Shown here piece by piece: positions 1-56,710 of a stretch of 64,000 nucleotides of DNA (position 1 is the stretch's first letter; every line of letters begins with the position of its first letter). The notes under the pieces were generated by a model, which worked only from the letters and a program-made list of their open reading frames with translations, had not been told where the DNA came from and did not search any database. The position numbers were made by a program, and so were the translations under genes. The stretch comes from Pirellulales bacterium (GTDB taxonomy: Bacteria > Planctomycetota > Planctomycetia > Pirellulales > DATAWG01): positions 90,393 through 154,392 of the forward strand of contig DATAWG010000099.1 of assembly GCA_036267355.1 (NCBI GenBank), given 5' to 3'.

Positions 1-3000
1 CGAGCCGCCGCCGCTGACAGTCAGAGCGGTGCTGTTGAGATTCAATGCCGCCGAGACATTGGTGCCGTTGAGCGTGGCAATCGTGCGGGTTGGATTGTTG
101 AAGTTGACGGTGCCGTTGGCGGTTAGCGTGCTGGCCGTGGAGATCGAACCGCCGGGGAGAACGCTCAGCGTTCCGCCCGAGGAAACGCTGACGCCGGTGC
201 CGACGATCGCGCCGCCGCTGCCGATTGCGAGCGTGCCGCCGGTGACATTGGTGTTGCCGGTGTAGGTGTTCGCATTGGTGAGCGTGAGCACGTTCGGTCC
301 GCTTTCGGTGAAAGTGCCGCTGCCGCTGATCACGTTGCCGTAGCTCTGCGGGTTGAAATTGGCGAAGACGAGGGCGGCATTGTCGAGAATGTTGCCGGCG
401 ACCGAGCCGTTCGAGGTTGCGCCATCGCCCAAGCGCAGCGTGCCGCTTGTGATCGTGGTGCCGCCGCTATAAGCATTCGCGCCGGTGAGGGTGAGCGTTC
501 CGCCGTTGACGGTGAGGCTTCCCGCGGGCCCTCCGTCTGCAATCGTGCCGCTGAAGCTCCCGCCGCCGGTGACGGAGAGCGCGGTGCCGAAGAGATCCAG
601 CGCGGCGGAGCCGTTGGTGCCGTTGAGCATGGCAAGCGTGGTGGTCGAGTTGTCCAGGTTGACGACGCCGTTGTCGGTGAGATTCGTCGCCGTGGAGATC
701 GAACCGCCCGCGGCGATGTTCATCGTCGCGCCGGACGAAACATTGATGCCCGCGCCGGCGATCGAGCCCGTGGCGCCGACGTTGAGCGTGCCACTGGCGA
801 CATTGGTGTCGCCGGTGTAGGTGTTGGCGGCATTCAGCACGACGACGGCGCCGGGGCCCGATGTGGTGATTCCGTAGTTATTGCCGTTATCGGTGATCGC
901 TCCGAGAGTGAGCGTGCCGGCGCCGGAGCCGTTGTTGGCCACGTTGAATGTGGCGTTGCCGGTGAGTGTGACGGCGCCGAGCGTGAGTGCATAAGGAATA
1001 TTCGCCCCGGTGCTGCCGCCGGTGACGGAGAGCGTGCTGGCGCCGATCGTGGTTTGGCCGGTGATCGTGGCGAGATTGTATCCCGTGACGTCGATTGTCG
1101 AGTTCGCGGTTACCTGAACATTGTTCGCGAGCGTTTCGGCAACGAGACCGACGATTTCGAAACCTTCGAACGCGCCATTTCCGTTGATGTTGTCCAAGCC
1201 CACGGTTTGGCTAGTGCCGCTGAGGCCAGAGAACACGACATAGTCGCCGACCGTGTAGGTGCCGGGAGTGGTGCTGGTCGCTTGCGTGTAGGTGGTGGGC
1301 ACCGTATCGGAGGCGAGATAATAGGTGGTTCCGCCGAGAGTGATATTGTTGTCGCGACCGCCGGCCGTCGATTCCGCTGCGCCGGTGTAGACATACAGGC
1401 TGTAGCTCGAGTAAGGGATATTGCTGAGATTGAGCGAGAGCGTGCTGCCGGCAGCCCAGTAGAGATATCCGTTGAGCAGGGGAATGCTGCTTCCCGAGTT
1501 GTAGGTGCTGCCGACGCCGGTAAGGGTGAAGGATGCGCCGGTGGGATTGACCGAGGCATCGGTCAGCGACGTGGCCGAGCTGAAGCTGCTCCCCGCAAGA
1601 TTCATCCAGTTGTTCATCGTCGCGCCAGGGGCGCCGGAGCCGTTCGGGGCAAGCGCCGTGTAATTGCCGACGGCATTGCTGCCCTCAAAATGGACGCCGA
1701 TCTGGTTGTTCGTTCCGGGGAGACTTAAAGTGCCGCCATTCAGCACGACCGCGCCGGTGCCGAGCGTCGAATTGCCGAAAGTGGCGATCGTGCCTTGGTT
1801 GATCGTGGTGCCGCCGGTGTACGTATTGCTGCCGGAAAGAGCGAGCGTGCCGGCGTCGGTTTTGGTGAGTCCGCCGGCGCCGCTGATGACTCCTGGCACG
1901 GTCAACGTGTTCGTGGCGGTCACGTCGAAGGTGCCGCCGCTGCTGCCCAAATTGATGGCGCGATTGTTGGCGCCGGCAGTACCGTTAAAGAGTCCGAAGG
2001 TGGCGGTCGCTTGGAGCGTGCCGCCGTTGAGGTTGATCGCGGCGCCTGTGGATGCCGCGCCGAGATCGGCGTTGTTGGCAATGCTGGCGAAGCCGTTGAT
2101 GTAGGTCGCGCCGGTGTAGGTGTTCGTGGCGCCGCCGGCGAGCGTGGTGATGCCGGGGCCGGAAATCGTCAGCGTGTTGCCGGTGATGCCGGAGTTCACG
2201 GTCAGCGAACCGTAATCGATAAGAACGATCCCATTGCCGCCGCCGGCATGGAACGAGCCGCCGGTGATGATTGAACCGGTGGCGGCCGAGGTCACGAGAA
2301 TGCCGCCGGCGTCGACCAGGTCGTCGCCGGTCGCCGCCAACGTGAGCGTCGTGCTCGGGGTGCTGAACGTCAGCACTCCCGATTCCACGGCAGCGGTTGC
2401 GGTGTAGTTCTGCGTGAGATTGGTTTCACCGGCGTCGTTGCCAGAGAATGTATTCGTATTGGAGTAGCTTGCAAGCGCTGCGATCGCTCCGGCGCTGATC
2501 GTGGCCCAGGTGCTGCCATGATTGACCGTGGCATAGGCCGTCCAACTACTGGTGGCATCGACGAGAACGCCGGGGCCGACGGTCGTTTGCGTGGTGGTAA
2601 TGCTACCCGTTGTCGGCAGGACGAAGTCGATCGTTGCGCCGACCGTGCGGGTCAGTGCCCCGAGGACCAGATTATCGCCGGCGCCGAGCGCGACGCCGGC
2701 GGAGATCGACGAAGCGCCGGCGTTGAACGTGGTGCCGGTGAATGTTTCCGCGGCGGATCGGCCACCCAAGAGCTGCAGGGTTCCGCCCGCCAATTCGAGA
2801 GCCGAGCCGGTCGTGGTTCCCGTGACGGCCAATTGAAGCGTTCCGGCGTTGATCGATGTCGTGCCGGTATAGGTGTTCGCGCCGGCGAGGCTAACGAGCC
2901 CGGGGCCGGTCGTCGTCAATCCGCCCGAGCCGCTGATGGCGCTATTGACGGTGAGCGTGTTGCCGGTATTGACCGACCAGTTCTGCGTCGCGCCGAGCAC

Positions 3001-6000
3001 CAGCGGGGCGGCGATCGTCACCGCTCCCGCGGCCGAGTTCGTATTCCCGATCGTGATCCCGCCGGCGCCGATCGTAAGGGTGTTGAAGCTTGGATCGTTG
3101 CTCAGCGTCAGGGCGTTGGGATCGTTGCTGACCAAGCCGAGGATCGACATGTTGGCGCCGAGCGACATGTTTGCTTCGTTGGCGGCGCCGGTTGCGGAGA
3201 AATTGACGGTCGCGGTGGGGCCCGGCGGCAGCGGCGTCGCGATGCCCGTGATGTTCGACACCCAGTTGCTGGTGGCGCTTCCGTCGGAGGCGCCCCACAC
3301 TCCGCTGGCGGCGCCATAGCCGCCCGACCAATATTCAGCCGTGAGCTCGGGTTGAGGCGTGGTGGTAATCGTGACGGCATTTGCGCCGACGGTGAAATTG
3401 CTGACGGTGAAGTTCGTGTTGTTATAGACCGATAGGGCGTAGGTCGAGGCGCCGTTGGCGTTGAGGCCGCCGCCGACGGAACTGAGCAAGGTCTGAACGC
3501 CGGAGGGTACGGTTTGGCCCGCCACGCCATAGACATTCAGCGCCACCGAACCGCTGGCAGGCGTCGATGCGACGGCAGTGCCGCTGGTGGCGATCGTGTC
3601 GAGAATTTGCGTGCCGAGCGTGCTTCCGGCGGCAAAAGTAAGCGATGTGCCGCTGGTGGGCACGATCGCCAGCGTCGAGGGAGTTGTGCTGCCGGTGAGG
3701 TAGTTGAACGTCGCGCCCGCGCTAACGGTTAGCGCGCCGGTGCCGATGCCGCTACTGGTCGAGCCGACGGTTGGCGAGGTGGCCCCCAAGATGCCGGCGC
3801 TGACCGTGGTGCCGCCGGAATAGGTGTTCGCACCGGTCAGGGTGTTGAGGCCCGGACCAATCTGTTGAACGGCGCCGCTGCCGCCGATGACATTGGTGAC
3901 GCTCTGTGCGGCGGCAGTGCCCGGATCGAGCAAGAGCGTGCCGTTGTTGGTCAGGGTGGTAAGTGCGGAAATCGCGCCGCGGGTCGTGCCGTTGCCGAGC
4001 TGCAACGTTGCACCGGGATTGATCGTCGTAGCGCCGGTGTAGGAATCGGCGGCCGTGAGGATGGTCGTGCCCGGGCCGCTTGCCACAACCGCGATGGTTC
4101 CCGTGCCGCCCCCGATCGTGCTGCCGACCATGAGCGATCCGGAGTCGGCCAAGGTCAACGTTTCGGTTCCTGCGGCGCCGGAGGTGATCGCATCGGTGAT
4201 CGAAAGCGAGCCGCCGGCGACTTGCGAGACCGTCAGATTGTTGTCGAGCGTGATCGTCGAACCAGAGAAGGCGGAAGCGGCCGCGGCAGTGCCGCCGATC
4301 GTGAGCGTGCCGGTGTTGCCGGCCACGACCGTGATCGGGCTGGCGATCGTGTAGGAACCAGCCGTTAGCAAGCTGGCGGAGTTCGCGCCGAACGAGGCCC
4401 CGAGAGAAACGACGGCGGTCGAAAGGCCGAGCGGGCCGGTGGCTGAATTGGTGTTGTTCGCGCCGACAAGAATGGTGCCTGCATTGATTGTAGTGCCGAG
4501 CGTGTAGGTGTCGGCGCCGCTAAGCGTCATGATGCCGTTGCCGGTTTTCGAGACGCCGGCGGTATAGGCATTGAACGGCACGAGAGCGGACGAAACGTTC
4601 AGGTCCGACGGTGGATTTTGCGCGCCGCGGCTCACATTGAACGTTAGGTTGCCATTGATCTCGATGGCGACTTCGGTGGCGTTGATGGTTGCCGGATTGC
4701 CCGTCGTGGGATCGGACGTGGCGATGAAGCCTGCCCCGTTGTACATCGAATAATTGCCGTTGCCATCGCCCAGCCCGGCGGCGGAGGAGAGCGTTCCGCC
4801 GACCAGCGTCATGTTGTTGGCGATGGTTTGCCGCACGCCGCTGGCCGCGGTGACGGTGCCGCCGTTGTTGATCACGAGGGCTTCTTTGCCGGTGGTGTAG
4901 CCGAGCACATCGGTGGCATTCAGTCGCAGCGTGCCGCCGTTGTTGACGGTGATCGTCGGCGAGGCGGAAAGCTGCCCCGGCTGGCCGTTCGCCGTATTCA
5001 CCTGCAGCGTGCCGCCGCCGACGATCGTTCCGCCGGTGTAGGTGCTTACGCCGGTGAGGATCAATGTTCCGGAATCGGTTTTCGTGAGCGTGCCCGCTCC
5101 ATTCATCGCGGCCGACATGGTGAGCGTGTTGCTGCTGGTGACGTCGAAGGCGCCGCCATTGTTGCCCAGCGTGACTGCGTTGCCCAAGCTAAAGGTTCCG
5201 GTTGCCTGAAGCGTGCCGCCGTTGAACACGAGCGTTCCGCCGCCCATATTCGCCGCGGCCGCGATGCTCGCAAAGCCGTTTAGATACGTTCCGCCGCTGT
5301 AGGTGTTCGTGCCGCCGAGGGTCGTCATGCCGGGTCCGGAGATCGTCAGCGAGCCGCCGGTGATGGCGGAATTCACGGTCAGCGAACCGTAATCGATGAG
5401 AAGCACGGCGTTGCCGCCGCCGGCATGGAACGAGCCGCCGGTGATTGTTGTACCGGTTGCGGCCGGAATGACCAGGATGCCGCCGGCGTCGGCTAAGTCG
5501 TCATTGGTCGTCGCCAATGTGAGCGTGGTGTTGGGATCGCTGAACGTCACCACTCCCGATTCCACGGCGCCGGTGGCAGTGTAGTTCTGCGTGAGGTTAG
5601 TCTCACCGATATAGGTTGCAGGGAACGAATTCGTATTCGAATAGCTGGCGAGCGGCGCGATCGCTCCGCCGCTGATCGTGGCCCAGTTGGCGCCGCCATT
5701 GACGGTGGCGTACGCAGTCCAGTTGTTGGTGGCGTCGACGAGCACTCCGGGGCCGGTAAACGTGGTGGTCGTCGTGATGCTGCCGGTGGTCGGCAACGTG
5801 AAGTCGACCGTGGCGCCGGCGCTGCGAGTCAAACCGTTGAGCACCAAATTTTTTCCCGAACCGAGCGCGACTCCGGCGGAAATCGCAGACGCGCCGGCGT
5901 TGAACGTCGTCGCAGTGAATGTCTGGCTGGCGGATTCTCCGCCCATCAGTTGCAGCGTGCCGCCTCCCATGGCAAGAGAAGACGTGGCGATGCTGCCCGT

Positions 6001-9000
6001 GGCCGCGAGCCTCAATGTTCCACCGTTGACGCTTGTCGCCCCGGTGTACGTGCTGGCGCCGGAAAGCGTGAGCATGCCGGAGCCGATCTTCGTCAGAGCG
6101 CCGCTCGTTCCGTTGATCGAGCCGGCGAAGGCCGCGGGGCTGGTGTTGTCGCCGCCGACGGTCAAGGTCGCGGCGCCGATCGACACGGTGCCGCCGGTGC
6201 CGGTGAGCGAGCCGATCTGCGTGGCGTATTGAGTGCTCGAGCCGAGGCTCAATGTGCCGCCATTGACCGCTACGGCCGAGTTGTCGCCGAACGCACCGCT
6301 GACATTCGCGACCGACGCCACGCCGGCGGTGAGCGCGCTGCCGCTGCTGACAACTGTCGGGCCGGCGTAGGTGTTGGCGCCGGAGAGCGTTGTCGTGCCG
6401 GTGCCGATGATGGTCAGGCCGCCGGCGCCACTGATGACGCCGGCAAAAGCCGCGGGGTTGGTGTTGTTGCCGCCGATGGTGAGGGTCGCGGAGCCGAGAG
6501 CCACATTGCCGCCGATCGTGCCGCCGCCGGTGAGCGAGCCGATTTGCGTGTTGAGGCCTTCGAGATTCAGGCCCGCGCCGGCCGTATTGGCCAAGGTAAC
6601 GGCAGAATTGTTTCCGAGCGCTCCGCTCACGTTCGCCACCGAAGCGACACCCGCGGCAAGCGTGCCCGCGCTGACCAGGGTTGGTCCGGTATAGGTGTTC
6701 GCGCCGGAGAGATAGAGCGTGTTGGCGCCGGTTTGCGTCAGTCCGAGCACATTCGCGCCGCTGTTGGTGTTCGCGATCACGCCCGCGTAGGTAAAGGCGC
6801 CGTTGACGGCATTGGTCGTGTCGATCCCAAGGCTTGAGCCGCTCGCGAATCCGCCGCTGGCGACGCTCAAGTTCGTGAGCAGGGTTTGCAAGTCGGCGGC
6901 GGTAAAATGGCCCGACGCGCCGACGCCGAACGTCAGCGTCGCGCCCGGATTGACGGTGATATTGGCGGCGGTCCAACTCGCGGTGGTGTTGTCGTAGAGC
7001 GATGTTTCGGAGGTGAATTCGAGCGTGCCGGCGGAGGCCAGCGTCGGACCGGTGTAGGTGTTTGCGCCGGAAAGCGTCAGCGATCCGCTGCCGACTTTGG
7101 TCAAGCCGCCGTCGGGCGTGGCCCCCAAAGCCGTGGCGTGAAGGAGGGCTTGTGAAATCGTGACGGCGTTGGCTTGCGAGTCGATCACGGCGCCGCCGGC
7201 GAGGACATACGCATTGGAGATACCGGTCAAGAAGGTGGTCGAGGAAAGCGCCGCTTGTAGCGTGCCGCCGTTGAAATTGATCGTGCTCGAGCCACCGCTG
7301 CCAAAGCCTCGGGCCGTGCTCAGTATGCCGCCATTGAGATTGAGCACGCCCGTGCCACCATAACCGGCCAGGTAGATCAGATCGCTGGGAAACGCGCCGC
7401 CCGCGGCAACGGTGAGTGTGCCGCCGGCGATGGTGAGCGTGCCCGTTCCGTAAGTTCCGCTGTTGGTATCGCCGCCGCCGATAAACACTCGGCCGCCCCC
7501 CGCGCCGACGCTCAGCGATCCCGATGTGACATCGACCAGTCCGGTGGCGGCGTTGTAGCCGACGAGAAACTCGTCGCCCCCGGAAACGGCGAGCGTGCCG
7601 CCGGCGATGTTGAGCGTGCCATTGCCGCCCGAGCCGTTGCCGATGCGCACGCCGTTCACGCTGGCCGGATTGGCGCCGCTGGCGCCGGAGGCGTCGACAT
7701 TCAGTGTGCCGCCGTTGATGTTCAGCGTACCGGCGCTGGTGCCCCCGATGACGACTTCGCCGGACGTTCCCGCGAGGGAACTGGCGGTTGCGGAGCCGCT
7801 AAAAGTCAATGTCGCGCCGCCATTGACCGTTACGGCGCTACTGCCCGAATTGATGTAGGCGCCGTCGATGTTGGCGATGGTCGATGCGCCGTTGACGGTG
7901 AAGCCGCCGCCCGCGGCCGTGATCGAGCCGGCGGAGGCGATGGTCAAGGTGCCGGAGCTAACGATCGTGCCGCCGCTGTAGATGTTTGCGCCGCTGAGGG
8001 TCAAGGTGTCGCTGCCGGCCATGGTCAGACCGCCCGAGCCGGAGATTGGGCCGCTGATCGTGGTGCCGCCGGTGCCGGTGTCGGCGATCGTGAGCAGATA
8101 GCCGCCGTTGGCGACGCTGCCGCTCACGGTGAACAAGCTGCCGCTGGCATTGGTCCACGATTGGGCTGCGCCGAGGACAATCGGAGCGCTGATCGAATTG
8201 AGGCCCGCGCCGGAGGCGACCGTAATGCCCGAGCCGGCCGTGTTGGTGCCTGATGCGCCGGCCAGGATCGTAATTGAATTGGTCGCAACGGCGCCGGGGC
8301 CGATGGAAACTCCCGCAATGTTGAAATTTAGGCTATTGATCGTGAAGCTTTGGCCGAGCGATTGCGTCAGGTTGGCGGCTCCGGTTGCGGTTTCGAACAC
8401 GTTGGCGGTGCTGATCGGCAGGCCGCTGTTCACGCCACCAGTGGCCGCGGTGACCCAATTGGTTGTGCCGGCGGGGTTCGTGTTCCAATTGCCGTCGGTG
8501 CCGCCGGCCCAATACGTGTCGCCGGCTGCGCCGAGCGCGACATTCAATTGGACGCCTGTGCTCGATGCCGTCAGATACGCGACGTCGCCGGTGGGAGGCG
8601 TAAAGTTTCCAAGCGCAATCGCGGTAGGCGCTGGGCTGCTGGCGAAGCTGAGCAACGTGTACGGCGCCGAGCCGATGCCGAGCGTCGCTCCGCTCAAGGG
8701 CGATAGATTGATCGTGGCGCCGCCGGGGCCCGTGCTCAACATGCCCGTGGTGACGATTTGATCGGTCGCGCTGGCGCTGAAATTAAGATTTAGCACCGCG
8801 GCGCCCGAGGTGCTGCCTCCGAGCGTGAGATTGGTAGCCGACGTCGTCGCGTTGTTGATCGTGAGAGTGCTGGGAGAGGCTTCGGAGTTGGAGAACGCCA
8901 GAGTGCCGATGCCTGATGTGCCGCCGACTCTGAGGCTGCCGGCGCCGCCGGCTGCGGAGCCGATCGTGTAGTTGCCATTGATGAGCAATGTGCCGCTGTT

Positions 9001-10419
9001 GGCGGCGCTGCCGACGGCAACGGCCGTATCGCCCAACGAACCGGCGGTAAGGGCCAATGCGCCGGCATTGACGGTCGTCGCGCCGGTGTAGGTGTTCGGG
9101 CCGGAGAGGGTAAGCGTGCCGGTGCCGACCTTGATTATTCCACCCGGGCCGCTGAGGATGCCGCTGTAGGCCGTGCTGGCGTTGTTGCCGCCGACGAGGG
9201 GAGCCACGGCGGCCGGACTGCCGGCCAGATCTTGAAGCAGGATATTTCCCGAGCCCGAGAGGCCGCCGAGGTTCGGGGCATCGATTCCGGCGGCAAACGT
9301 CAATCCATTGTTCTCAATGACGGCGACGGTGCTGTTTTGGACGGCATTCGTGTTGGCCAATTGGAGCGTGCCGGTGCCAACGGTCGTGGCGCCGTTGTAG
9401 GTGTTGGCGCCCGCGAGGGCCAACGTGCCGCTGCCGGCCGTGGTGATGCCATAGCCGGCGCCGCTGATGACTCCGCCGATCGTCAACGTGTTGTTGCCGA
9501 CGGTGATGGTGGGCGAAGCAGTGAGCGCCACCGGGGCAGTTCCGAGATTGAGGCCGCTCGTCGAACCGGTGAACGTAAAACTTCCGCCGATGCTATACGA
9601 CCCCGAGCCGAGCGACAGCGTCATCGGCGAATTGCTGGTGTTGTCGATCGTGGTTCCACTGCCGATCGTAAACAGTTTGCCGGAGGCGAAACCGCTGAAC
9701 GCGCTCGCCGCCGCGGCCTGGGCAAAGTTCAAGGTGCCGGACGTCAACGTGAAGCCGGTGGTGAAGCCGGTGTTGCCTTCGGTGGTGTTGTTGCCGACGT
9801 CGAGGTTGACCGTCAGGCCGGCGCCGTTTTCCGTAATGATGCCACCGCCGCTCTGCTCATTGTAGCCGAGGGCCGTTTGAAAATTGATCGTGCCGCCGCC
9901 GGCAAGCGTAAGCGCGACTTCGTTGAAGTTCAGTGCAGCGCCGTTATATGTGTCGCCTTCATTCAAGACCGAGCCCGCGGCGACCGTCCAGGTTTGCGTG
10001 CCGCTGAGGTACGAGTTGGCCGAACCGGTCAACGTGATATTGGCGCTGCCGCTGCTGATCGCCAAACCGGTCCAATTGATTGCGGAATCGAGCGCCACAG
10101 TGAATGTGTCGCCGGCAAAGTCGGTCGACGAGGCCCCGAAGGTCAACTGCGCGCCGGCGGGGGCGGCGGCGAGGCCCGAATCGCCCCCCGTGTTGGAAGT
10201 TGTCCAGTAGCTGTAACCTTGCCCGGGGCTGTAAGTGCCCGTCGGACTTCCAAAGCCCGAACTGGTGGTGGTGTTGACGTCGAAGTAGTAGGCCGTTCCA
10301 TTCGCCGCGGCCAGGCGGGGCGCCGCAAACACGGCCGCGACCATGAGCAGCGCTTGCCAACCACAGCCGGCCCAGCCACCGCAGATCGAGGAAAACCAAG
10401 AACCGGTTGAACGACTCAT
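1..10419 (-). CDS. Giant secreted autotransporter-associated beta-strand repeat (PATR) / beta-helix surface protein, 5' (N-terminal) portion; gene continues beyond window start
   Basis: Minus-strand ATG at 10419..10417 gives MSRSTGSWFSSICGGWAGCGWQALLMVAAVFAAPRLAAANG (signal peptide), followed by an uninterrupted frame of Gly/Thr/Ser/Ala/Asn-rich repeats such as GTLTLSGANTYTGATTVNAGTLQL, LTLSGPNTYTGATTVNAGALAL and ITTAGSGTLALAGANTYNGATTVGTGTLQL, all the way to position 1. I spot-checked the frame at 1..36 and at 10381..10419. No stop in this frame would explain why the six-frame track (complete ORFs only) lacks it, while every other frame yields only short Arg/His/Gln-rich shadow ORFs. Confidence 0.8.
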   Translation of the reverse strand, partial: MSRSTGSWFSSICGGWAGCGWQALLMVAAVFAAPRLAAANGTAYYFDVNTTTSSGFGSPTGTYSPGQGYSYWTTSNTGGDSGLAAAPAGAQLTFGASSTDFAGDTFTVALDSAINWTGLAISSGSANITLTGSANSYLSGTQTWTVAAGSVLNEGDTYNGAALNFNEVALTLAGGGTINFQTALGYNEQSGGGIITENGAGLTVNLDVGNNTTEGNTGFTTGFTLTSGTLNFAQAAAASAFSGFASGKLFTIGSGTTIDNTSNSPMTLSLGSGSYSIGGSFTFTGSTSGLNLGTAPVALTASPTITVGNNTLTIGGVISGAGYGITTAGSGTLALAGANTYNGATTVGTGTLQLANTNAVQNSTVAVIENNGLTFAAGIDAPNLGGLSGSGNILLQDLAGSPAAVAPLVGGNNASTAYSGILSGPGGIIKVGTGTLTLSGPNTYTGATTVNAGALALTAGSLGDTAVAVGSAANSGTLLINGNYTIGSAAGGAGSLRVGGTSGIGTLAFSNSEASPSTLTINNATTSATNLTLGGSTSGAAVLNLNFSASATDQIVTTGMLSTGPGGATINLSPLSGATLGIGSAPYTLLSFASSPAPTAIALGNFTPPTGDVAYLTASSTGVQLNVALGAAGDTYWAGGTDGNWNTNPAGTTNWVTAATGGVNSGLPISTANVFETATGAANLTQSLGQSFTINSLNFNIAGVSIGPGAVATNSITILAGASGTNTAGSGITVASGAGLNSISAPIVLGAAQSWTNASGSLFTVSGSVANGGYLLTIADTGTGGTTISGPISGSGGLTMAGSDTLTLSGANIYSGGTIVSSGTLTIASAGSITAAGGGFTVNGASTIANIDGAYINSGSSAVTVNGGATLTFSGSATASSLAGTSGEVVIGGTSAGTLNINGGTLNVDASGASGANPASVNGVRIGNGSGGNGTLNIAGGTLAVSGGDEFLVGYNAATGLVDVTSGSLSVGAGGGRVFIGGGDTNSGTYGTGTLTIAGGTLTVAAGGAFPSDLIYLAGYGGTGVLNLNGGILSTARGFGSGGSSTINFNGGTLQAALSSTTFLTGISNAYVLAGGAVIDSQANAVTISQALLHATALGATPDGGLTKVGSGSLTLSGANTYTGPTLASAGTLEFTSETSLYDNTTASWTAANITVNPGATLTFGVGASGHFTAADLQTLLTNLSVASGGFASGSSLGIDTTNAVNGAFTYAGVIANTNSGANVLGLTQTGANTLYLSGANTYTGPTLVSAGTLAAGVASVANVSGALGNNSAVTLANTAGAGLNLEGLNTQIGSLTGGGTIGGNVALGSATLTIGGNNTNPAAFAGVISGAGGLTIIGTGTTTLSGANTYAGPTVVSSGSALTAGVASVANVSGAFGDNSAVAVNGGTLSLGSSTQYATQIGSLTGTGGTVSIGAATLTVGGDNTSPAAFAGSINGTSGALTKIGSGMLTLSGASTYTGATSVNGGTLRLAATGSIATSSLAMGGGTLQLMGGESASQTFTATTFNAGASAISAGVALGSGKNLVLNGLTRSAGATVDFTLPTTGSITTTTTFTGPGVLVDATNNWTAYATVNGGANWATISGGAIAPLASYSNTNSFPATYIGETNLTQNYTATGAVESGVVTFSDPNTTLTLATTNDDLADAGGILVIPAATGTTITGGSFHAGGGNAVLLIDYGSLTVNSAITGGSLTISGPGMTTLGGTNTYSGGTYLNGFASIAAAANMGGGTLVFNGGTLQATGTFSLGNAVTLGNNGGAFDVTSSNTLTMSAAMNGAGTLTKTDSGTLILTGVSTYTGGTIVGGGTLQVNTANGQPGQLSASPTITVNNGGTLRLNATDVLGYTTGKEALVINNGGTVTAASGVRQTIANNMTLVGGTLSSAAGLGDGNGNYSMYNGAGFIATSDPTTGNPATINATEVAIEINGNLTFNVSRGAQNPPSDLNVSSALVPFNAYTAGVSKTGNGIMTLSGADTYTLGTTINAGTILVGANNTNSATGPLGLSTAVVSLGASFGANSASLLTAGSYTIASPITVVAGNTGTLTIGGTAAAASAFSGSTITLDNNLTVSQVAGGSLSITDAITSGAAGTETLTLADSGSLMVGSTIGGGTGTIAVVASGPGTTILTAADSYTGATTINPGATLQLGNGTTRGAISALTTLTNNGTLLLDPGTAAAQSVTNVIGGSGAVQQIGPGLNTLTGANTYSGGTTVSAGILGATSPTVGSTSSGIGTGALTVSAGATFNYLTGSTTPSTLAIVPTSGTSLTFAAGSTLGTQILDTIATSGTAVASTPASGSVALNVYGVAGQTVPSGVQTLLSSVGGGLNANGASTYALSVYNNTNFTVSNFTVGANAVTITTTPQPELTAEYWSGGYGAASGVWGASDGSATSNWVSNITGIATPLPPGPTATVNFSATGAANEANMSLGANMSILGLVSNDPNALTLSNDPSFNTLTIGAGGITIGNTNSAAGAVTIAAPLVLGATQNWSVNTGNTLTVNSAISGSGGLTTTGPGLVSLAGANTYTGTTSINAGTLQLAVTGTTTGSALELAGGTLQLLGGRSAAETFTGTTFNAGASSISAGVALGAGDNLVLGALTRTVGATIDFVLPTTGSITTTQTTVGPGVLVDATSSWTAYATVNHGSTWATISAGAIAALASYSNTNTFSGNDAGETNLTQNYTATAAVESGVLTFSTPSTTLTLAATGDDLVDAGGILVTSAATGSIITGGSFHAGGGNGIVLIDYGSLTVNSGITGNTLTISGPGITTLAGGATNTYTGATYINGFASIANNADLGAASTGAAINLNGGTLQATATFGLFNGTAGANNRAINLGSSGGTFDVTATNTLTVPGVISGAGGLTKTDAGTLALSGSNTYTGGTTINQGTIATFGNSTLGTGAVVLNGGTLSLPGTNNQIGVHFEGSNAVGNYTALAPNGSGAPGATMNNWMNLAGSSFSSATSLTDASVNPTGASFTLTGVGSTYNSGSSIPLLNGYLYWAAGSTLSLNLSNIPYSSYSLYVYTGAAESTAGGRDNNITLGGTTYYLASDTVPTTYTQATSTTPGTYTVGDYVVFSGLSGTSQTVGLDNINGNGAFEGFEIVGLVAETLANNVQVTANSTIDVTGYNLATITGQTTIGASTLSVTGGSTGANIPYALTLGAVTLTGNATFNVANNGSGAGTLTLGAITDNGNNYGITTSGPGAVVVLNAANTYTGDTNVASGTLNVGATGSIAGAGINVSSGATMNIAAGGSISTATNLTDNGVVNLDNSTTTLAMLNGTNGSAALDLFGTALSVTGGGSFSGTIADGGPAGSLTVNGGTLTLTGANAYSGGTTITSGTLRLGDGATSNGSVAGNILDNAALVFANFNPQSYGNVISGSGTFTESGPNVLTLTNANTYTGNTNVTGGTLAIGSGGAIVGTGVSVSSGGTLSVLPGGSISTASTLTANGTVNFNNPTRTIATLNGTNVSAALNLNSTALTVSGGGS

Positions 10420-11103
10420 TGTTGTGCTCCTACGGATTCCTCGTTGTCGCGGGCAGGTCGGCGCGCGGCATCATGCGGTGAAAAGCAAGTTGAATCGATC
10501 GAGAAAAGAGGGGTGTGCGAAATTCGCCCGTCGCTGCTCGCAACGTGCGCAGCCGGGCCATATAGAGCGCTGCGCGGCGATTCGCTGGTCGAAGGATCGA
10601 CCGAATGAAGGTTGGCGATGTATATCGACTTCATGAGCGCAGTCGAACGGCCAGGGTACTGAAATCAGAGCAAACAAGCCGCCTGTGCGACATGCGAACG
10701 CGGAACCGCATTCCCCCATCCAAGCCAGCCAATCCTAACAAGCGGCCGAAAACTTGTCACGCATTTGGATCGGTTGGCAGTCGGACGTGTTCAAGGAGGT
10801 CAGGCTTTCCAGCCTGAAATTCCTCGGGTTCCTTCAGCCTAGGAAGGCTGACCTACGGCAAACGTGCTACTACCGTTTGGTTCGCCACCGACCGTTCCAC
10901 GCCGGCAACCGCCGGGGTGCTAGGTTCTAGCCTCGAATCATTGCGACCCAAATTCGGAAAAATCTTCAAGCAGATATGCGAATACATTTCGGCTTTGTAG
11001 AATGCCGCCTTCAGGCAACCGGCCGATTTCGCTTTTCTTTTCCGGCCAATGCGGGGGCTGGCATGTGCCAATTCTTGGCGACTGTCATGAGCGGAGTTTG
11101 ACA

Positions 11104-12096
11104 ATGAGAACGGAAAAAGCCGCGGGCTTTACGTTGGTCGAACTGCTCGTAGTGATCACGATCATTGGCATCCTGATGTCGCTATTGCTGCCTGCCGTGC
11201 AATCGGCGCGCGAGTCGGCCCGAATCGCGCAGTGCGAGAACAACCTGCACCAGATTGGGATCGCGGCCCAGTTGCACGTGCAAACGCTCGATTATTTCCC
11301 CTGCGCGGGCTGGTTTTGGACCTGGGCCGGCGATCCCGATCAAGGCACGGGGCTGAATCAGCCGGGCGGGTTCTTCTACAACATTCTTCCCTACATCGAC
11401 CAGAAAAATCTCTGGCAATTGGGGGCCGGAACCGCGCAATTAAGCTCGACGAAGAACGCCGCGATCGAGCAGGCCGCCACCACGCTATTGTCAGTGTACA
11501 ACTGCTCGAGCCGCCGGCCACTCCAGCTTTGGCCCTTTGTGAACGGCACCAGTTTCGTCAACATGACGCGCCCGGCGAGTCTCGCCCGCTGCGACTACGC
11601 GGCCAACGGCGGCGATGCAGGGTTGCCGATCTACAACCCCGGGCCGCCGAACTATGCCGATGGCCAATCCTTACCATGGTGGCAGAGCTTTTTGGGGTCT
11701 AACATTCCGGCCAATTATTCGGGCATTTGCGAGCCGGCCTGCCTGATCCGGGCCAGCGCGGTTCACACGGGAATGAGCAACCTGCTTTTGGCCGGCGAGC
11801 GATACATCAATCCCGACAATTATTTCAACGGCACCGACTCGGGCGACGACCAAGGCTGGGACATGGGCTACGATCTCGACACGAATCGCTGGGCCGGCAC
11901 CAGTTTCGCCCCGATGCAAGACACGCCGGGCTACGACAGCTACGAGAATTTTGGCAGCGCCCACCCGAGCGGATTTGCGGCCGTTTTCTGCGATGGCTCG
12001 GTGCACAAGCTCAGCTATGCCATCGACCCGACGACGATTGGCCACATGGCTAATCGCAACAGCACGATGGCGATCGACCCGACGAAAGTGCAGTAA
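11104..12096 (+). CDS. DUF1559 / H-X9-DG family protein with prepilin-type N-terminal cleavage/methylation domain (type II secretion pseudopilin-like; a Planctomycete-expanded family)
   Basis: ATG at 11104 gives [37 protein letters not shown], the classic prepilin leader plus hydrophobic helix. The C-terminal motif [15 protein letters not shown] is H-X9-DG. Divergently oriented to the giant gene across a 680-bp lower-GC spacer. Confidence 0.85.
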
Positions 12097-12228
12097 TTCC
12101 CCCGCGTGGGGCAAGCCGCGGCCGTTCACCGAACTACGCGCCGAAATTGTCCGCAAAATAGATCAAAAGATGCGAACGCGAATTGGGCACGGAGCCCAGC
12201 GAATGTCGAAGATTTGGCCGGCTACTTA

Positions 12229-12675
12229 ATGGTTGGTTCAGGCACCGCATCAACGCTCAATGTCACCGCATCGACCGTCCCCATCGGGCTCGCCTACGGC
12301 CTCACAACTCGGAGCAACAACTCTCAATAGCAACGTCACGTTCAATGTCGCGGACAACATCAACGGCGGCGGCAATGCCCTGGGCACGTTGACACTCGGT
12401 TCCATCAGCGACAGCGGCGGCGGATACGGAATCACCACGGCCGGCCCCGGCACGGTAGTCCTTTCGGCGGCCGCCAATCCCTACGGCGGCGCAACCGCAA
12501 TCAACTCCGGCGCCTTGCGCTTGGCCATGCCACGACAAATACGCGTTCTCTCCGAACGCGACATTCGCCGGCAGCCCCGCCGCGGTGCCCGAGCCCTCGG
12601 CAATCGTGTTGGCCGTATTCGCCGCGATCGGCCTGTTGCTCACCGTGCGTCGGCGAAGCGTTTGTTGCCGGTAGT
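12229..12675 (+). pseudogene. Degenerate remnant of a PATR-repeat protein with a PEP-CTERM sorting signal, disrupted by two frameshifts
   Basis: Three successive + frames carry the pieces. Frame 1 (ATG 12229) reads MVGSGTASTLNVTASTVPIGLAYG...stop at 12328. Frame 2 reads LGATTLNSNVTFNVADNINGGGNALGTLTLGSISDSGGGYGITTAGPGTVVLSAAANPYGGATAINSGALRLA (PATR-like). Frame 0 reads ATFAGSPAAVPEPSAIVLAVFAAIGLLLTVRRRSVCCR* (canonical PEP-CTERM: PEP, hydrophobic span, Arg cluster) ending about 12675. Confidence 0.4.
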
Positions 12676-12998
12676 ATGCGGCGGCCCTCGACCTCAATAG
12701 CATGCGGTTTCGCCTCGTTGTCGTAGTAAAGCGACATCGCGTTGCCGATTGGCAACGCGGTATGAGGCAAATCTTTGTCGGCGGGTCCAGACCGGCTGCC
12801 CAATGTCGCGACGGAAGTCGCAATTCCGATTCGCTTTGCGCTTAGGATCTCCCGCGGCATGGCGCGCGCGGGTCTTAGCGGGCGCATTCTTTGCCTTTTC
12901 TTCTCCGCACCGCCGGCACCCCCTGCTGCTTTTCCCGGGGGCGATCGCTCGGCGACCCAGCGGTTTTGTTCTCCCGCTTCACACAATGTCGAGCTGCC

Positions 12999-13763
12999 AT
13001 GAGCACACAAACCGATACGCAATTCGATTCGCTGGCACCATCGATTCGGTTGCACGACGGATCGCGCCGCACAGCGGAAGCAGTCGCTGCGCCGTATTTT
13101 TCGTTGGCGCGGCTACGGTTGGAGCGGAACGAGCCGATCGTCGAACCCGAGGGCAATCTGCGTGCGGGCTATCGAATTGCAAAGCGGGGGTTCGATATCG
13201 CCGGCGCGATTGTTGCGATTGTGCTGCTTTCGCCGGTGTTGGTCACGGTGTTCGTCGTGCTCTCGATTAGCACCTGGGGGCGGCCCTTGATTCGGCAAGA
13301 GCGGGTCGGATATTTGGGACGACGATTCGGCATGTACAAATTTCGCAGCATGCGCCTCGATGCCGAAAAGCTGCAGCATCTCGTCAAGAATGAACACAAT
13401 TCCGGGCCGATTTTCAAGAACCGCCGCGATCCGCGGATCACGCGCATCGGCCGACTTCTCCGCCGCACGAGCATCGACGAGATGCCGCAATTGTTCAACG
13501 TGCTTTTCGGACACATGTCGCTGGTCGGCCCGCGGCCGCCGTTGGCGAAGGAAGTGGCCCACTATAAGGCGTGGCAACGCCGTCGTTTGGCCATCCCGCC
13601 GGGGCTGACGTGCCTTTGGCAGGTGAGCGGGCGGTCGGAAATCGGCTTCGACGAGTGGGTGCGGATGGATATCTGGTATTTGCGAAATCAAAACCTGGCC
13701 ACCGATTTGCAGCTTCTGGTCCGCACGCCCTTGTGCGTGCTGAGCTGCCGCGGAGCGTATTGA
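12999..13763 (+). CDS. Bacterial sugar transferase (polyprenyl-phosphate glycosyl-1-phosphate transferase; EpsB/WcaJ/ExoY C-terminal-domain type; exopolysaccharide initiation)
   Basis: ATG at 12999 (MSTQTDTQ...). Family motifs KRGFDIAGAIVAIVLLSPVLV, GRRFGMYKFRSM, GPIFKNRRDPRITRIGRLLRRTSIDEMPQLFNVLFGHMSLVGPRP and LWQVSGRSEIGFDEWVRMDIWYLRNQNLATDL match PF02397. Confidence 0.85.
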   Translation: MSTQTDTQFDSLAPSIRLHDGSRRTAEAVAAPYFSLARLRLERNEPIVEPEGNLRAGYRIAKRGFDIAGAIVAIVLLSPVLVTVFVVLSISTWGRPLIRQERVGYLGRRFGMYKFRSMRLDAEKLQHLVKNEHNSGPIFKNRRDPRITRIGRLLRRTSIDEMPQLFNVLFGHMSLVGPRPPLAKEVAHYKAWQRRRLAIPPGLTCLWQVSGRSEIGFDEWVRMDIWYLRNQNLATDLQLLVRTPLCVLSCRGAY

Positions 13764-18166: not shown

Positions 18167-19072
18167 ATGAGAAAGTATTATCTGGCATTGTTTGCCGCAG
18201 TGGCGCTGGTTGGTTGGATGGATGCCACCAGCCGCGCCGATTGCGGTTGCGGCGCTGGTCCGTCTTGCGGAAGCGAAGGGGGAGGCTGCGGCGATCCCTC
18301 GTGCGTCGAGCCCTATTGCTGCGACCACGTCTGCAATTCCGGCTGGATTTGCGGCGGCGGATGCTCCTCGTGCGGCTCACGCCCGTGCTGCGGGCTGTTT
18401 CCGTTGTTTCCATGCCGTAACGAGTGCGAATGGCGGCGCTACCGGCCCTGCGATTCGTGCGGCTGTGGCGATTCCTGCGGCGGTGGCGGGTCGTGTGGTT
18501 GCCATGAATCTTGCGGTTGCGCGAAATCGTCTGGCTGCGAAAAGTCTTGCGGTTGCGAATCGTGTGGATGTGAGAAACCGTGCGGCTGCGAATCATGCGG
18601 GCGGCGCGCGTCATGCGGTTGCGAATCGTGCGGCTGCCATGAGTCTTGCGGTTGCGATGATGGCGGCTGCCGCCCGTGTGGATTGTTTCCGTGCCTTTTC
18701 CCCTGGATCCGCAGCGAACGGTGCAAGGGGGGCGGCGAGCGCTATGGGGAATGTGGCCAATGCGGTTGCGGCGAACTGTACCTTGGCGATTGGCGAAGCC
18801 AGCCGCCGCGCTGCGAACCGTGCAACTGCTGCGGCGGTTGGGTGGGACCCGGCGAACCGATCCCGTCCTATCAAATGCCGCCGCGAGCCGGCTCGGGCTA
18901 CGGCTACGGCCAAATCGTGCCCGGCCCGAATGGCTCGGCGCCGACGACGCCGAACGATTCGATGCCGAACGCCGCTCCGCCGCTAGCGCCCCCGACCACT
19001 CCGCCGCCGACGACCCTGCCGCCGTCGTATCCGCCGCGCACGTCGCAACGCCCGCATTGGAGCAACTACTAG
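18167..19072 (+). CDS. Secreted cysteine-rich tandem-repeat protein (about 12 S-C-G-C-x-x repeats flanked by two CGLFPxFPC boxes) with Pro/Thr-rich C-terminal tail; function unknown (metal/redox binding?)
   Basis: Signal peptide MRKYYLALFAAVALVGWMDATSRA. Core SCGCHESCGCAKSSGCEKSCGCESCGCEKPCGCESCGRRASCGCESCGCHESCGCDD lies between PCCGLFPLFPCRNEC and RPCGLFPCLFPWIRSERC. Cys is roughly 20% of residues, and the DNA shows matching 18-bp periodicity (tgcggttgcgaatcgtgt...). Confidence 0.6.
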   Translation: MRKYYLALFAAVALVGWMDATSRADCGCGAGPSCGSEGGGCGDPSCVEPYCCDHVCNSGWICGGGCSSCGSRPCCGLFPLFPCRNECEWRRYRPCDSCGCGDSCGGGGSCGCHESCGCAKSSGCEKSCGCESCGCEKPCGCESCGRRASCGCESCGCHESCGCDDGGCRPCGLFPCLFPWIRSERCKGGGERYGECGQCGCGELYLGDWRSQPPRCEPCNCCGGWVGPGEPIPSYQMPPRAGSGYGYGQIVPGPNGSAPTTPNDSMPNAAPPLAPPTTPPPTTLPPSYPPRTSQRPHWSNY

Positions 19073-49058: not shown

Positions 49059-49406
49059 ATGAAGATCCGCCCCGCCAGCGACGTCGATCTCATGTTCCGA
49101 GCGTGCTCGGACCGAACCCGATTGCGCATGCTGTCTTTGCTTCGCGGCGGCGAACGTTGCGTTTGCGATTTGGTCGACACGCTCCGCGTGCCGCAGCCAA
49201 AGGCCTCGCGACATCTGGCCTATCTACGTCGGGCGGGGCTGGTTCGATGCCGCAAGGAAGGCCTCTGGAGCTATTACTGCCTGGCGCCGGCGAAGACCTC
49301 CTTCCACGCCAAGTTGTTGGATTGCCTGAGCTGTTGTTTCGAAGACGTGCCCGAGCGGACCGATGCCGCCCGGCGCTTGGCCGCGCGCGGAAGCCGTTGC
49401 CCATGA
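49059..49406 (+). CDS. arsR: ArsR/SmtB family metalloregulator (arsenic-responsive repressor)
   Basis: DLMFRACSDRTRLRMLSLL...ERCVCDLVDTLRVPQPKASRHLAYLRRAGLV: a winged HTH with the ELCVCDL-type As(III)-binding Cys pair. Overlaps the start of the downstream channel-ArsC gene (operon). Confidence 0.8.
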   Translation: MKIRPASDVDLMFRACSDRTRLRMLSLLRGGERCVCDLVDTLRVPQPKASRHLAYLRRAGLVRCRKEGLWSYYCLAPAKTSFHAKLLDCLSCCFEDVPERTDAARRLAARGSRCP

Positions 49407-49437
49407 ATTTTTTTCTCCATTCGATTTGCCTCAGCGC

Positions 49438-54315: not shown

Positions 54316-55137
54316 TCACGCGTGGGAGGATACACCGCGCCTACGTCGCACGACCGCGAGCAGGCCGATTGCACCTAGGCCAAACAGCGCGAGCGACGCT
54401 GGCTCGGGCACGGCGGTTACGCCGCTGGTGATCGTCAGATCGCTTGCGAGGCCGTCGTAGTTCGGTCCGCCGCCGCCGGGGGCGACCGCAAGATGAATCG
54501 CATTAAAGCCGCCGAATGTGCCGGTTGGGGTGACGCCCGTGCCGGCCTCCACGCCGTTGACAAAGAACGAGAAGACGCCGCCGATATCGTCCACCTTTAG
54601 ATCGTAGTCGGTGTCGAGAGCGACCGGAGCGGAGCCGATAAGAACGCCCGAATACCCTCCGGAAGTTCCGGAAGTGAAATTGTTCCCGTCGTAGCTGAAA
54701 TAAGCCACCCAATCACCGCTGGCATCTTCGCCGATCTGCAGATCTCCACCGCGACCGCCGTCGGACGAAAACAGAATGCCCTGCGCATAACTGGTGAGGG
54801 CCGCGTGTACTTCGACGGAAAAGTTGTCGTTGGGCAGCGTCGTGGCGCCCGACTGCGTGCCATAAAATCCGCCGGTAGCGCTCCAATCCGAGCTGGTCGA
54901 GCTCGGGCCGCCAAGGGGACCTCCCGGGGCCGGATTGGCGCCGCTGTATGGGGTCTCGAAATTATGGCCGCCGACGCTATCGAGCGGCATGCCCGAGGCG
55001 GTCGAGCCGCCAGAATATCCGGTGGCGTCGTTCGAGAGCGTCCAATCGGCCACGATCGTGCTTGCCGAAGCACGGTCGGCCACGAATGCGAAGGCCAGCA
55101 AACCAGCCGCCACCGCAATTGCATGATGCAGTTTCAT
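54316..55137 (-). CDS. PEP-CTERM sorting domain-containing secreted protein (Gly/Ser/Thr-rich lectin-like body)
   Basis: Minus ATG 55137 gives MKLHHAIAVAAGLLAFAFVADRASA (signal peptide). The C-terminus GVTAVPEPASLALFGLGAIGLLAVVRRRRGVSSHA is a canonical PEP-CTERM (PEP + TM + Arg cluster). The upstream 48 codons of the track ORF were trimmed. Confidence 0.8.
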   Translation of the reverse strand: MKLHHAIAVAAGLLAFAFVADRASASTIVADWTLSNDATGYSGGSTASGMPLDSVGGHNFETPYSGANPAPGGPLGGPSSTSSDWSATGGFYGTQSGATTLPNDNFSVEVHAALTSYAQGILFSSDGGRGGDLQIGEDASGDWVAYFSYDGNNFTSGTSGGYSGVLIGSAPVALDTDYDLKVDDIGGVFSFFVNGVEAGTGVTPTGTFGGFNAIHLAVAPGGGGPNYDGLASDLTITSGVTAVPEPASLALFGLGAIGLLAVVRRRRGVSSHA

Positions 55138-56658: not shown

Positions 56659-56710
56659 GGATGGATTAGGAATATTCCTTGCTGGCGCTGCGGGCTCGTG
56701 GGCGGGGGAG

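What the first reader, a model, noticed from the sequence alone, without database searches (positions are those of the whole stretch)
1..10419. Giant (>3470 aa within window) PATR/beta-helix surface protein running off the window edge
A single minus-strand frame from ATG 10419 to position 1 encodes a signal peptide followed by hundreds of copies of the autotransporter-associated beta-strand repeat (G-x-L-T-L-S-G-x-N-T-Y-T-G-x-T-T-V-N-A-G-T-L). There is no enzymatic domain and no autotransporter barrel in view, and the gene continues beyond the window. The six-frame track shows only out-of-frame shadow ORFs here (for example the 457-aa Arg/His-rich ORF at 5603..6976), so the true gene would be missed by track-driven annotation. 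Such giant repeat adhesin-like proteins in Planctomycetes are largely uncharacterised.
Basis: partly seen in the sequence, partly recalled or inferred. Interest (0 to 1): 0.6.

Follow-up and report, generated by a model that had tools for sequence, protein, structure and literature searches.

The report
Giant beta-helix surface protein, Pirellulales
This is a real but ordinary giant gene: the first 3473 residues of a secreted, repeat-built beta-helix surface protein of a Pirellulales planctomycete, a kind with thousands of relatives in public data, and its far end, which decides how it is anchored, lies outside the window.

Summary
The minus-strand frame from ATG 10419 to position 1 has 3473 codons and no stop. 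It matches PATR (PF12951, E 6e-68) and TIGR02601.

There are about 17-19 PATR repeats, not hundreds. The rest of the chain is degenerate Gly/Thr/Ala/Ser/Asn rungs.

It is a beta-sandwich that weakly resembles CBM6/35 modules and matches no Pfam family. Its relatives are about 250-aa proteins built as signal peptide, domain, PEP-CTERM, plus PATR proteins of Planctomycetia MAGs. Six of those were checked and carry PATR plus PEP-CTERM and no autotransporter barrel.

My best reading is a Sec-exported, tens-of-nanometres-long beta-helical fibre with a probable glycan-binding module, most likely sorted by PEP-CTERM/exosortase rather than type V secretion. The C-terminus could not be retrieved, so the anchor is inferred.

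The family is very large: 11,306 representative relatives, and 25 of the best 147 are at least as long as this fragment. Giant genes are well documented in planctomycetes. This is a new member of a known kind and of low interest.

The parts
1..10419 (-). N-terminal 3473 codons of one giant gene. It is open to the window edge and the stop codon is not in view.
   Evidence: No stop in frame. PATR E 5.8e-68. GC3 0.81. Window 5416-12571 is reproduced at 100% identity by an independent Logan assembly contig.
10427..10430 (-). GGAG, a possible Shine-Dalgarno site 7 nt upstream of the ATG at 10417-10419
   Evidence: Read directly from the sequence. An in-frame stop lies about 20 codons upstream.
10303..10419 (-). 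Putative long signal peptide, aa 1-39 (hydrophobic core aa 23-33, AAA|N)
   Evidence: Sequence inspection and Kyte-Doolittle scan. No dedicated predictor was run.
205..9435 (-). PATR-bearing beta-helix body, aa 329-3405. Full PATR repeats start at aa 329, 432, 802, 1110, 1231, 1339, 1446, 1695, 1782, 1960, 2115, 2188, 2505, 2756, 2855, 3190, 3305 and 3374.
   Evidence: Pfam and TIGRFAM hits. Self-built HMM. Fifteen copies of a 69-nt unit at 60-77% identity.
8455..8520 (-). Internal 'module start' motif W-x-G..W..NW (aa 634-655: DTYWAGGTDGNWNTNPAGTTNW)
   Evidence: The same motif lies within the first 120 residues in 33 of the 49 relatives that have it. Internal copies occur mainly in the longest relatives.
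3262..3336 (-). Second internal 'module start' motif (aa 2362-2386: EYWSGGYGAASGVWGASDGSATSNW). It is preceded by TTPQPE, a possible remnant of a PEP motif.
   Evidence: The remnant reading is an inference.
4753..6216 (-). Copy A of a roughly 500-aa internal duplication (aa 1402-1889)
   Evidence: Chunked self-BLASTP gives 62-78% identity to aa 2457-2958. The DNA copies are 78-83% identical.
1546..3051 (-). Copy B of the internal duplication (aa 2457-2958)
1144..1701 (-). Non-PATR insert domain (aa 2907-3092), a beta-sandwich weakly like CBM6/35/22 jelly rolls. It matches no Pfam family.
   Evidence: No Pfam hit at E<=0.1. AlphaFold model pTM 0.74, pLDDT 69. Foldseek matches to CBM35 2w1w, CBM6 1uxz and the porphyran-binding CBM 8xmz, with TM 0.5-0.56 on the target. 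Homologues are PEP-CTERM proteins.
1..1059 (-). Two diverged tandem units of about 180 aa (aa 3121-3288 and 3300-3473). The second is cut by the window edge, so more units may follow.
   Evidence: 45-61% identity between the units. DNA copies 5-273 and 560-828 are 75% identical with 555-nt spacing. The modelled fold is a beta-helix.

Best explanation
The gene encodes a giant exported structural protein of a Pirellulales planctomycete.

After Sec export through an N-terminal signal peptide, the chain folds into a very long right-handed parallel beta-helix. About 18 canonical PATR repeats are interspersed with degenerate Gly/Thr/Ala/Ser/Asn rungs. Charged residues make up about 4% of the chain, and there is no Cys outside the leader.

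At roughly 22 residues and 0.48 nm per rung, the visible part alone would be about 70 nm long. This is an inference from known beta-helix geometry.

Near aa 2907-3092 the helix carries a beta-sandwich module of CBM6/35-like fold, which probably binds a glycan.

The protein most likely ends, beyond the window, in a PEP-CTERM signal. Exosortase would process that signal, leaving the fibre on or in the cell envelope or exopolysaccharide layer. There it would serve attachment or matrix building rather than catalysis.

The gene looks like at least three units fused head to tail, each resembling a stand-alone PATR protein, with later internal duplication.

What is shown: the open frame, the PATR membership, the predicted beta-helix and sandwich folds, and the PEP-CTERM ends of the closest homologues. 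What is inferred: the signal peptide cleavage, the PEP-CTERM end of this particular gene, surface location, glycan binding, the adhesive role and the fusion history.
For: - Open frame and coding signal.
- PATR/TIGR02601 well above the curated cut-offs.
- The only sequence match to a solved structure is the PATR-containing beta-helical stalk of the Ssp autotransporter, 8e7f (PMC9977779).
- Insert domain: sandwich model, and weak CBM6/35/22/61 and Cry domain III matches.
- PEP-CTERM inference, part 1: the sequence homologues of the insert are about 250-aa proteins with a signal peptide and a PEP-CTERM tail.
- PEP-CTERM inference, part 2: P0135, the only representative matching aa 2950-3473 in one stretch, has 24 PATR stretches and two insert domains, and it ends in PEP-CTERM.
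- PEP-CTERM inference, part 3: 13 of the 14 genome loci carrying the insert are planctomycete MAGs (one is Prosthecobacter). Seven of the ORFs end in a PEP-CTERM-like tail. The six I scanned have PATR plus PF07589 and no PF03797.
- PEP-CTERM inference, part 4: the same window encodes another PEP-CTERM protein at 54316-55281.
- PEP-CTERM/EpsH occurs in Planctomycetes, and its substrates are Ser/Thr-rich, probably glycosylated extracellular proteins (PMC1569441).
- Modular build.
Against: - The C-terminus of this gene was not seen. An exact 50-mer from the window edge is absent from both contig collections, a protein-based metagenome scan found nothing above 57% identity, and the 154-kb source contig could not be read.
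- Among the best 147 representative relatives, more end like autotransporter barrels (about 78) than in PEP-CTERM (about 36). PATR content alone therefore does not favour PEP-CTERM.
- No exosortase gene was found among the window ORFs scanned.
- The CBM resemblance is weak (TM 0.3-0.37 on the query; 57 of the model's 206 residues have pLDDT below 50), and no sugar-binding residues were examined.
- There are no expression or localisation data.
- Window positions 1-5415 have no independent assembly support.
Confidence: 0.6

Rival explanations
1. It is the passenger of a classical type Va autotransporter (or a two-partner-secretion exoprotein). A 12-stranded beta-barrel beyond the window edge would translocate and anchor it in the outer membrane.
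For: PATR is defined by its association with autotransporter passengers (PMC8111173, citing Doyle 2015). About 78 of the 147 best representative relatives end with the aromatic terminus typical of outer-membrane barrels, and they reach 6576 aa. The top structural neighbours are autotransporter and TPS passengers. The weak NCBIfam matches are to fusolisin and ShdA.
Against: Every planctomycete relative that shares the insert domain and has an intact end carries PEP-CTERM and no PF03797. No barrel lies within the 3473 aa. The taxonomy of the barrel-ended relatives is unknown, and they share only the generic PATR part with this protein.
Confidence: 0.2
2. It is a released, unanchored extracellular fibre or matrix protein, or it uses another C-terminal signal such as T1SS, T9SS or a dockerin-like module.
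For: About 33 of the 147 relatives end in neither a PEP-CTERM nor a barrel-like terminus, although many of these look truncated or frameshifted. L012 has a different C-terminal region.
Against: No RTX, T9SS or dockerin match occurs in the visible 3473 aa. The closest architectural relatives are PEP-CTERM proteins.
Confidence: 0.12
3. The 10.4-kb frame is an artefact: either a chimeric join of two PATR genes through the internal duplication in a metagenome-assembled contig, or a decaying pseudogene that is not expressed as one protein.
For: The independent Logan contig stops at window 5416, inside the duplicated segment. Window 1-5415 has no second assembly. The source is a MAG.
Against: The two copies are only 78-83% identical in DNA, too diverged to collapse or mis-join. 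The frame stays open with uniform GC3 and composition across the junction. Relatives of 3000-6500 aa are common.
Confidence: 0.05

Closest known systems
PATR (PF12951) / TIGR02601 'autotransporter-associated beta strand repeat' proteins of PVC bacteria that end in PEP-CTERM. Examples: P0135 (3040 aa, JGI) and the Thermoguttaceae and Planctomycetia MAG genes in L003-L007, L011 and L015.
   Same: They share the signal peptide and the PATR repeats spaced about 100-200 aa apart. They share the insert domain followed by the conserved 'STIDVTG...LSVTGGG...FNVANNGSG' segment. They have the same low-charge Gly/Thr/Ser/Asn composition and come from planctomycete hosts.
   Different: Identity is only 36-56% in the shared parts. 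This protein is longer than any of them (>3473 aa against 650-3040 aa). It has one insert domain in view where P0135 has two, and its own C-terminus is unseen.
Classical type Va autotransporter adhesins with many PATR repeats, such as Brucella BmaC, Salmonella ShdA and Shigella IcsA
   Same: PATR repeats within a long right-handed beta-helix passenger, an N-terminal signal peptide and an adhesin-type role (PMC8111173).
   Different: No beta-barrel translocator is seen. The closest relatives use PEP-CTERM instead. The host is an environmental planctomycete, and the CBM-like insert is not described for these adhesins as far as I know.
Planctomycetal 'giant genes' (>5 kb), as catalogued for Fuerstia marisgermanicae and 29 other genomes
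   Same: A gene over 10 kb in a planctomycete, predicted to encode a surface or structural protein. The paper reports giant genes in all 29 genomes analysed and up to 19 genes over 10 kb in one strain (PMC5177795).
   Different: That catalogue is by size only. The >20-kb genes it analysed were reported with cell-adhesion and carbohydrate-binding annotations. I did not check whether any is a PATR protein.
CBM6/CBM35-type carbohydrate-binding modules (e.g. 2w1w, 1uxz, 8xmz)
   Same: A beta-jelly-roll sandwich of about 130-150 aligned residues.
   Different: Sequence identity is 14-19%. TM is only 0.3-0.37 on the query. There is no Pfam CBM hit. Ligand-binding residues were not assessed. The family is linked to PEP-CTERM proteins, not to glycoside hydrolases.

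Membership tests
PATR / TIGR02601 repeat proteins | Matches to PF12951 and TIGR02601 above the curated cut-offs | tested here: met
   PF12951 scores 225 bits against a cut-off of 27, with 16 stretches. TIGR02601 scores 207 bits against a cut-off of 19.85, with 17 stretches.
PATR / TIGR02601 repeat proteins | The repeats form rungs of a right-handed parallel beta-helix | tested here: met
Type Va (classical) autotransporter | C-terminal 12-stranded beta-barrel translocator (PF03797) | not testable with these tools
   There is no PF03797 hit in the 3473 aa in view. The C-terminus is outside the window and could not be fetched.
Type Va (classical) autotransporter | N-terminal Sec signal peptide followed by a beta-helical passenger | tested here: inconclusive
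   The passenger-like fold is met. The signal peptide was judged only from the sequence and a hydropathy scan.
PEP-CTERM / exosortase substrates | C-terminal Pro-Glu-Pro motif, a transmembrane helix and a basic cluster (PF07589/TIGR02595) | not testable with these tools
   The C-terminus is not in the window. Support is indirect: the closest architectural homologues carry it.
PEP-CTERM / exosortase substrates | The genome uses the system (other PEP-CTERM proteins and an exosortase/EpsH gene) | tested here: inconclusive
   A second PEP-CTERM protein is encoded at 54316-55281 (PF07589 E 5e-7). No exosortase was found among 30 window ORFs scanned, and the rest of the genome is not available.
Bacterial 'giant genes' (>5 kb, Reva and Tummler criterion as used in PMC5177795) | A single coding sequence longer than 5 kb | tested here: met
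   At least 10,419 nt of uninterrupted frame.
CBM6/CBM35-like carbohydrate-binding modules | Beta-jelly-roll fold with a family HMM match and conserved ligand or calcium sites | tested here: inconclusive
   Fold resemblance is weak. There is no Pfam match at E<=0.1. Binding residues were not examined.

The most novel reading that the evidence does not exclude
The insert at aa 2907-3092 may represent an undescribed glycan-binding module. It would be specific to PEP-CTERM-sorted proteins of Planctomycetota and Verrucomicrobiota. It occurs both as small stand-alone surface proteins and embedded in beta-helical fibres.

The giant gene itself may record how such fibres grow. Neighbouring PATR/PEP-CTERM genes would fuse in frame and lose the intervening sorting signals. 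Possible traces are the internal W-x-G..W..NW 'start' motifs and a TTPQPE remnant at aa ~2355.
Probability: 0.3. Interest if true: 0.35.

Novelty: new member of a known kind. Interest (0 to 1): 0.15.

Why it matters
It matters little beyond annotation. The gene adds one more very long PATR beta-helix protein to a family with thousands of members. Giant surface-protein genes are already a recognised feature of planctomycete genomes.

Three modest points are useful:
- In planctomycetes these 'autotransporter-associated' repeats appear to be paired with PEP-CTERM/exosortase sorting, not type V secretion. Automatic names such as 'fibronectin-binding autotransporter adhesin' are therefore misleading.
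- A recurrent PEP-CTERM-linked beta-sandwich domain has no Pfam family. It could be a lectin module relevant to how these bacteria attach to polysaccharide surfaces.
- Such genes fragment short-read assemblies, so they are under-counted.

Tried and rejected
- Extending the gene leftwards failed. The exact 50-mer of window 1-50 is absent from genome contigs and metagenome contigs. A protein-based metagenome scan with aa 3254-3473 gave only relatives of at most 57% identity, and none came from the sample that holds this organism.
- Neighbour-gene look-ups gave only short contigs: 7.2 kb, 3.0 kb and 10.6 kb. The first look-up failed because the longest-ORF start (11002) is not the called start, which is 11104. 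The 154-kb NCBI contig (LigA HEX4000027.1) is not readable here.
- The word-indexed homologue search with the last 600 aa returned only proteins of at most about 1045 aa and nothing near-identical. It could not show full-length relatives. The exhaustive representative search did.
- I tested the fusion idea by BLASTing the N- and C-terminal regions of homologues against the giant. The test was swamped by PATR matches. Only two pre-PEP regions (L004, P0184) mapped to the first junction, aa 515-594, so I treat it as weak support.
- Whole-protein self-BLAST reported only the identity hit. Chunked BLAST was used instead.
- A recent tandem expansion or a phase-variable repeat tract is rejected. The repeat copies are 60-83% identical, and TRF finds only trivial 21-nt arrays.
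- An enzymatic passenger is rejected for the visible part. The fusolisin match is 48.7 bits against a cut-off of 999 and falls in the beta-helix, not the protease domain.
Full report

Yes, in its essentials. Translating the reverse complement of window 1-10419 gives 3473 codons without a stop. The other five frames of the same stretch contain 20-242 stops. GC at the third codon position is 0.81, in line with the other genes I called in the window at 0.68-0.80.

The ATG at 10417-10419 has a GGAG 7 nt upstream, and an in-frame stop lies about 20 codons further up. The first 39 residues have one early Arg, a hydrophobic core at aa 23-33 and an AAA|N site. That fits a long signal peptide, but I judged it only by eye and by a hydropathy scan.

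The 457-aa shadow ORF at 5603-6976 exists. It lies in another frame of the same strand and is 30% Arg and 10% His. An ORF list misses the real gene only because ORFs that run off the sequence end are not listed.

An independent Logan assembly contig (SRR11836411) and a JGI contig (3300036820) reproduce window 5416-12571 and 9391-12347 at 100% identity. The left 5.4 kb has no second source.

**2. What the protein is made of**

Pfam gives a single family, PATR (PF12951), at E 5.8e-68 with 16 stretches. NCBIfam gives TIGR02601 at E 9.5e-63 with 17 stretches. The weak sub-threshold matches to fusolisin and ShdA fall in beta-helix parts of those models. An HMM built from the protein's own repeats finds 17-19 full copies, about one per 180 residues. 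'Hundreds of copies' is therefore wrong.

The rest of the chain is degenerate. Six residues make up 75% of it (Gly 17%, Thr 16%, Ala 13%, Ser 11%, Leu 9%, Asn 8%). Lys, Arg, Glu, Asp and His together make up about 4%, and both Cys residues lie in the leader.

At the DNA level the PATR-coding unit recurs 15 times at 60-77% identity, and there is no recent tandem array.

The larger-scale structure is as follows:
- A roughly 500-aa duplication, aa 1402-1889 against aa 2457-2958, at 62-78% identity.
- Units of about 110 aa between aa 1105 and 1560.
- Two units of about 180 aa at the very end, aa 3121-3288 and 3300-3473. The second is cut by the window edge.

**3. Fold**

An AlphaFold model of aa 2874-3473, built with a 21-sequence alignment, has mean pLDDT 79 and pTM 0.67. 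It consists of short, regularly spaced strands.

By sequence, the only solved relative is the PATR-containing beta-helical stalk of the Serratia Ssp autotransporter, 8e7f (PMC9977779). The beta-helix reading is therefore supported for the modelled part. For the rest it is inferred from the repeat content.

**4.

Residues 2907-3092 are not PATR-like. Modelled alone with 10 sequences, the segment forms a beta-sandwich with pTM 0.74 and pLDDT 69, and several loops are poorly predicted.

Foldseek finds weak similarity to CBM35 (2w1w), CBM6 (1uxz, 2cdp), CBM22, a porphyran-binding CBM (8xmz) and Cry toxin domain III. TM is about 0.5 on the small targets and 0.3-0.37 on the query. No Pfam model matches the domain at E<=0.1.

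Its sequence relatives are informative. Several are proteins of about 230-255 aa built as signal peptide, this domain and a PEP-CTERM tail (P0125-P0130). P0122 matches the segment just downstream of the domain at 66% identity and ends in PEP-CTERM.

**5. Relatives and the missing C-terminus**

The gene's end could not be obtained. An exact 50-mer from the window edge is absent from both contig collections. A protein-based metagenome scan found nothing closer than 57%.

An exhaustive HMMER search with aa 2950-3473 found 11,306 representative proteins at E<=0.001 and 1017 at E<=1e-30. Of the best 147:
- 43 are at least 3000 aa, 25 are at least 3473 aa, and the longest is 6576 aa.
- About 78 end like outer-membrane barrels.
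- About 36 end in PEP-CTERM.
- The rest look truncated or have other ends.

PATR content alone therefore does not decide the anchor. The architecture does point one way:
- The only representative that matches the query in one stretch is P0135. It is 3040 aa, has 24 PATR stretches and two copies of the insert domain, and ends in PEP-CTERM.
- A genome scan with an alignment of the insert domain returned 14 loci, 13 of them planctomycete MAGs (one named Thermoguttaceae) and one Prosthecobacter.
- Seven of the enclosing ORFs end in a PEP-CTERM-like tail. The others look frameshifted, run into a contig end, or have a different end.
- All six that I scanned carry PATR plus PF07589 and no autotransporter barrel.

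The window itself encodes another PEP-CTERM protein at 54316-55281. PEP-CTERM/EpsH is known from Planctomycetes, and its substrates are typically Ser/Thr-rich, presumably glycosylated extracellular proteins (PMC1569441). In Akkermansia such proteins have been detected by mass spectrometry (PMC4960237).

**6. Most likely mechanism**

- Step 1, Sec export through the leader. This is inferred.
- Step 2, folding into a beta-helical rod. This is predicted for the last 380 aa and inferred for the rest. With about 22 residues and 0.48 nm per rung, the visible part would span about 70 nm, an estimate from general beta-helix geometry.
- Step 3, presentation of a CBM-like module that probably binds a polysaccharide. 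The fold resemblance is weak, and binding is untested.
- Step 4, processing by exosortase at a C-terminal PEP-CTERM signal and retention in the envelope or exopolysaccharide layer, where the protein would act in attachment or matrix formation. This is inferred from homologues, and I put it at about 0.6.

The main rival is a type Va autotransporter with a barrel beyond the edge, at about 0.2. Another secretion signal or no anchor comes to about 0.12. An assembly chimera or pseudogene is about 0.05 and is disfavoured because the internal duplicates are only 78-83% identical in DNA.

**7. How the giant may have arisen**

The motif W-x-G..W..NW lies within the first 120 residues, directly after the signal peptide, in 33 of the 49 relatives that have it. 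Internal copies occur mostly in the longest proteins.

This protein has two internal copies, at aa 637 and 2364. Each follows a segment that resembles the stretch preceding PEP-CTERM in homologues:
- '...VQLNVALGAAGD|TYW...'
- '...AVTITTTPQPELTAE|YW...'

For comparison, homologues read '...VVLNVVPEPST...' at that point.

In locus L007, two adjacent PEP-CTERM genes are joined in frame with no stop between them. This suggests growth by in-frame fusion of neighbouring PATR/PEP-CTERM genes. The support is motif-level only, and the L007 case could be a sequencing error.

**8. Comparison with what is known, and verdict**

The protein is a member of the PATR/TIGR02601 class by HMM. It is a 'giant gene' in the sense used for planctomycetes, where all 29 genomes analysed had genes over 5 kb and one strain had 19 genes over 10 kb (PMC5177795).

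It works like an autotransporter passenger as a structure. Membership of type V secretion cannot be tested here, and the nearest architectural relatives argue against it.

It is a new member of a known kind. Interest is low (0.15). The only mildly new element is the unannotated PEP-CTERM-linked sandwich domain.

Noticed in passing
window 18167-19072 (+): A 301-aa protein with a signal-peptide-like start and an extremely Cys-rich body made of CGC/CGCESCGC-type repeats, followed by a Pro-rich tail. It has no Pfam match.
   Followed up: no
window 54316-58981 (-): A cluster of probable surface glycan-binding proteins. One is a Laminin_G_3 protein with a PEP-CTERM tail (54316-55281). Two carry NPCBM domains (55390-56658 and 56711-58981). 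The cluster shows that this genome uses PEP-CTERM sorting.
   Followed up: partly
window 49363-50580 (+): A single ORF combines a MIP channel domain with a low-molecular-weight phosphotyrosine phosphatase/ArsC-like domain. It may be an aquaglyceroporin-arsenate reductase fusion.
   Followed up: no
window 11002-12096 (+): This is a DUF1559 / N-terminal methylation-motif protein, a planctomycete hallmark. Its called start is 11104, not the longest-ORF start 11002. The exact-sequence look-up succeeded only with 11104.
   Followed up: yes
window 5416 (left end of Logan contig L001): The independent short-read contig ends inside the 500-aa internal duplication of the giant gene. This illustrates how such genes fragment assemblies and are under-counted.
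   Followed up: partly
L007:1848-6992: In a Planctomycetaceae MAG, a Kelch + PATR + PEP-CTERM gene runs in frame, with no stop, into the next gene, which has its own signal peptide, PATR repeats, the insert domain and a PEP-CTERM tail. It is either a sequencing error or a snapshot of gene fusion.
   Followed up: partly
P0135 (JGI protein, 3040 aa): The source names it 'fibronectin-binding autotransporter adhesin', yet it has PATR repeats and a PEP-CTERM tail and no Pfam hit to an autotransporter barrel. Automatic names for this class are misleading.
   Followed up: yes
window 12891-13763 (+): A bacterial sugar transferase (PF02397), of the kind that primes polysaccharide synthesis, lies 2.5 kb from the giant gene. 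It would be compatible with an exopolysaccharide-linked PEP-CTERM system, but no linkage was tested.
   Followed up: no
tool behaviour: The word-indexed homologue search listed no protein longer than about 1045 aa for a PATR query. The exhaustive representative search returned many of 2000-6500 aa. Giant relatives are invisible to the first tool.
   Followed up: partly
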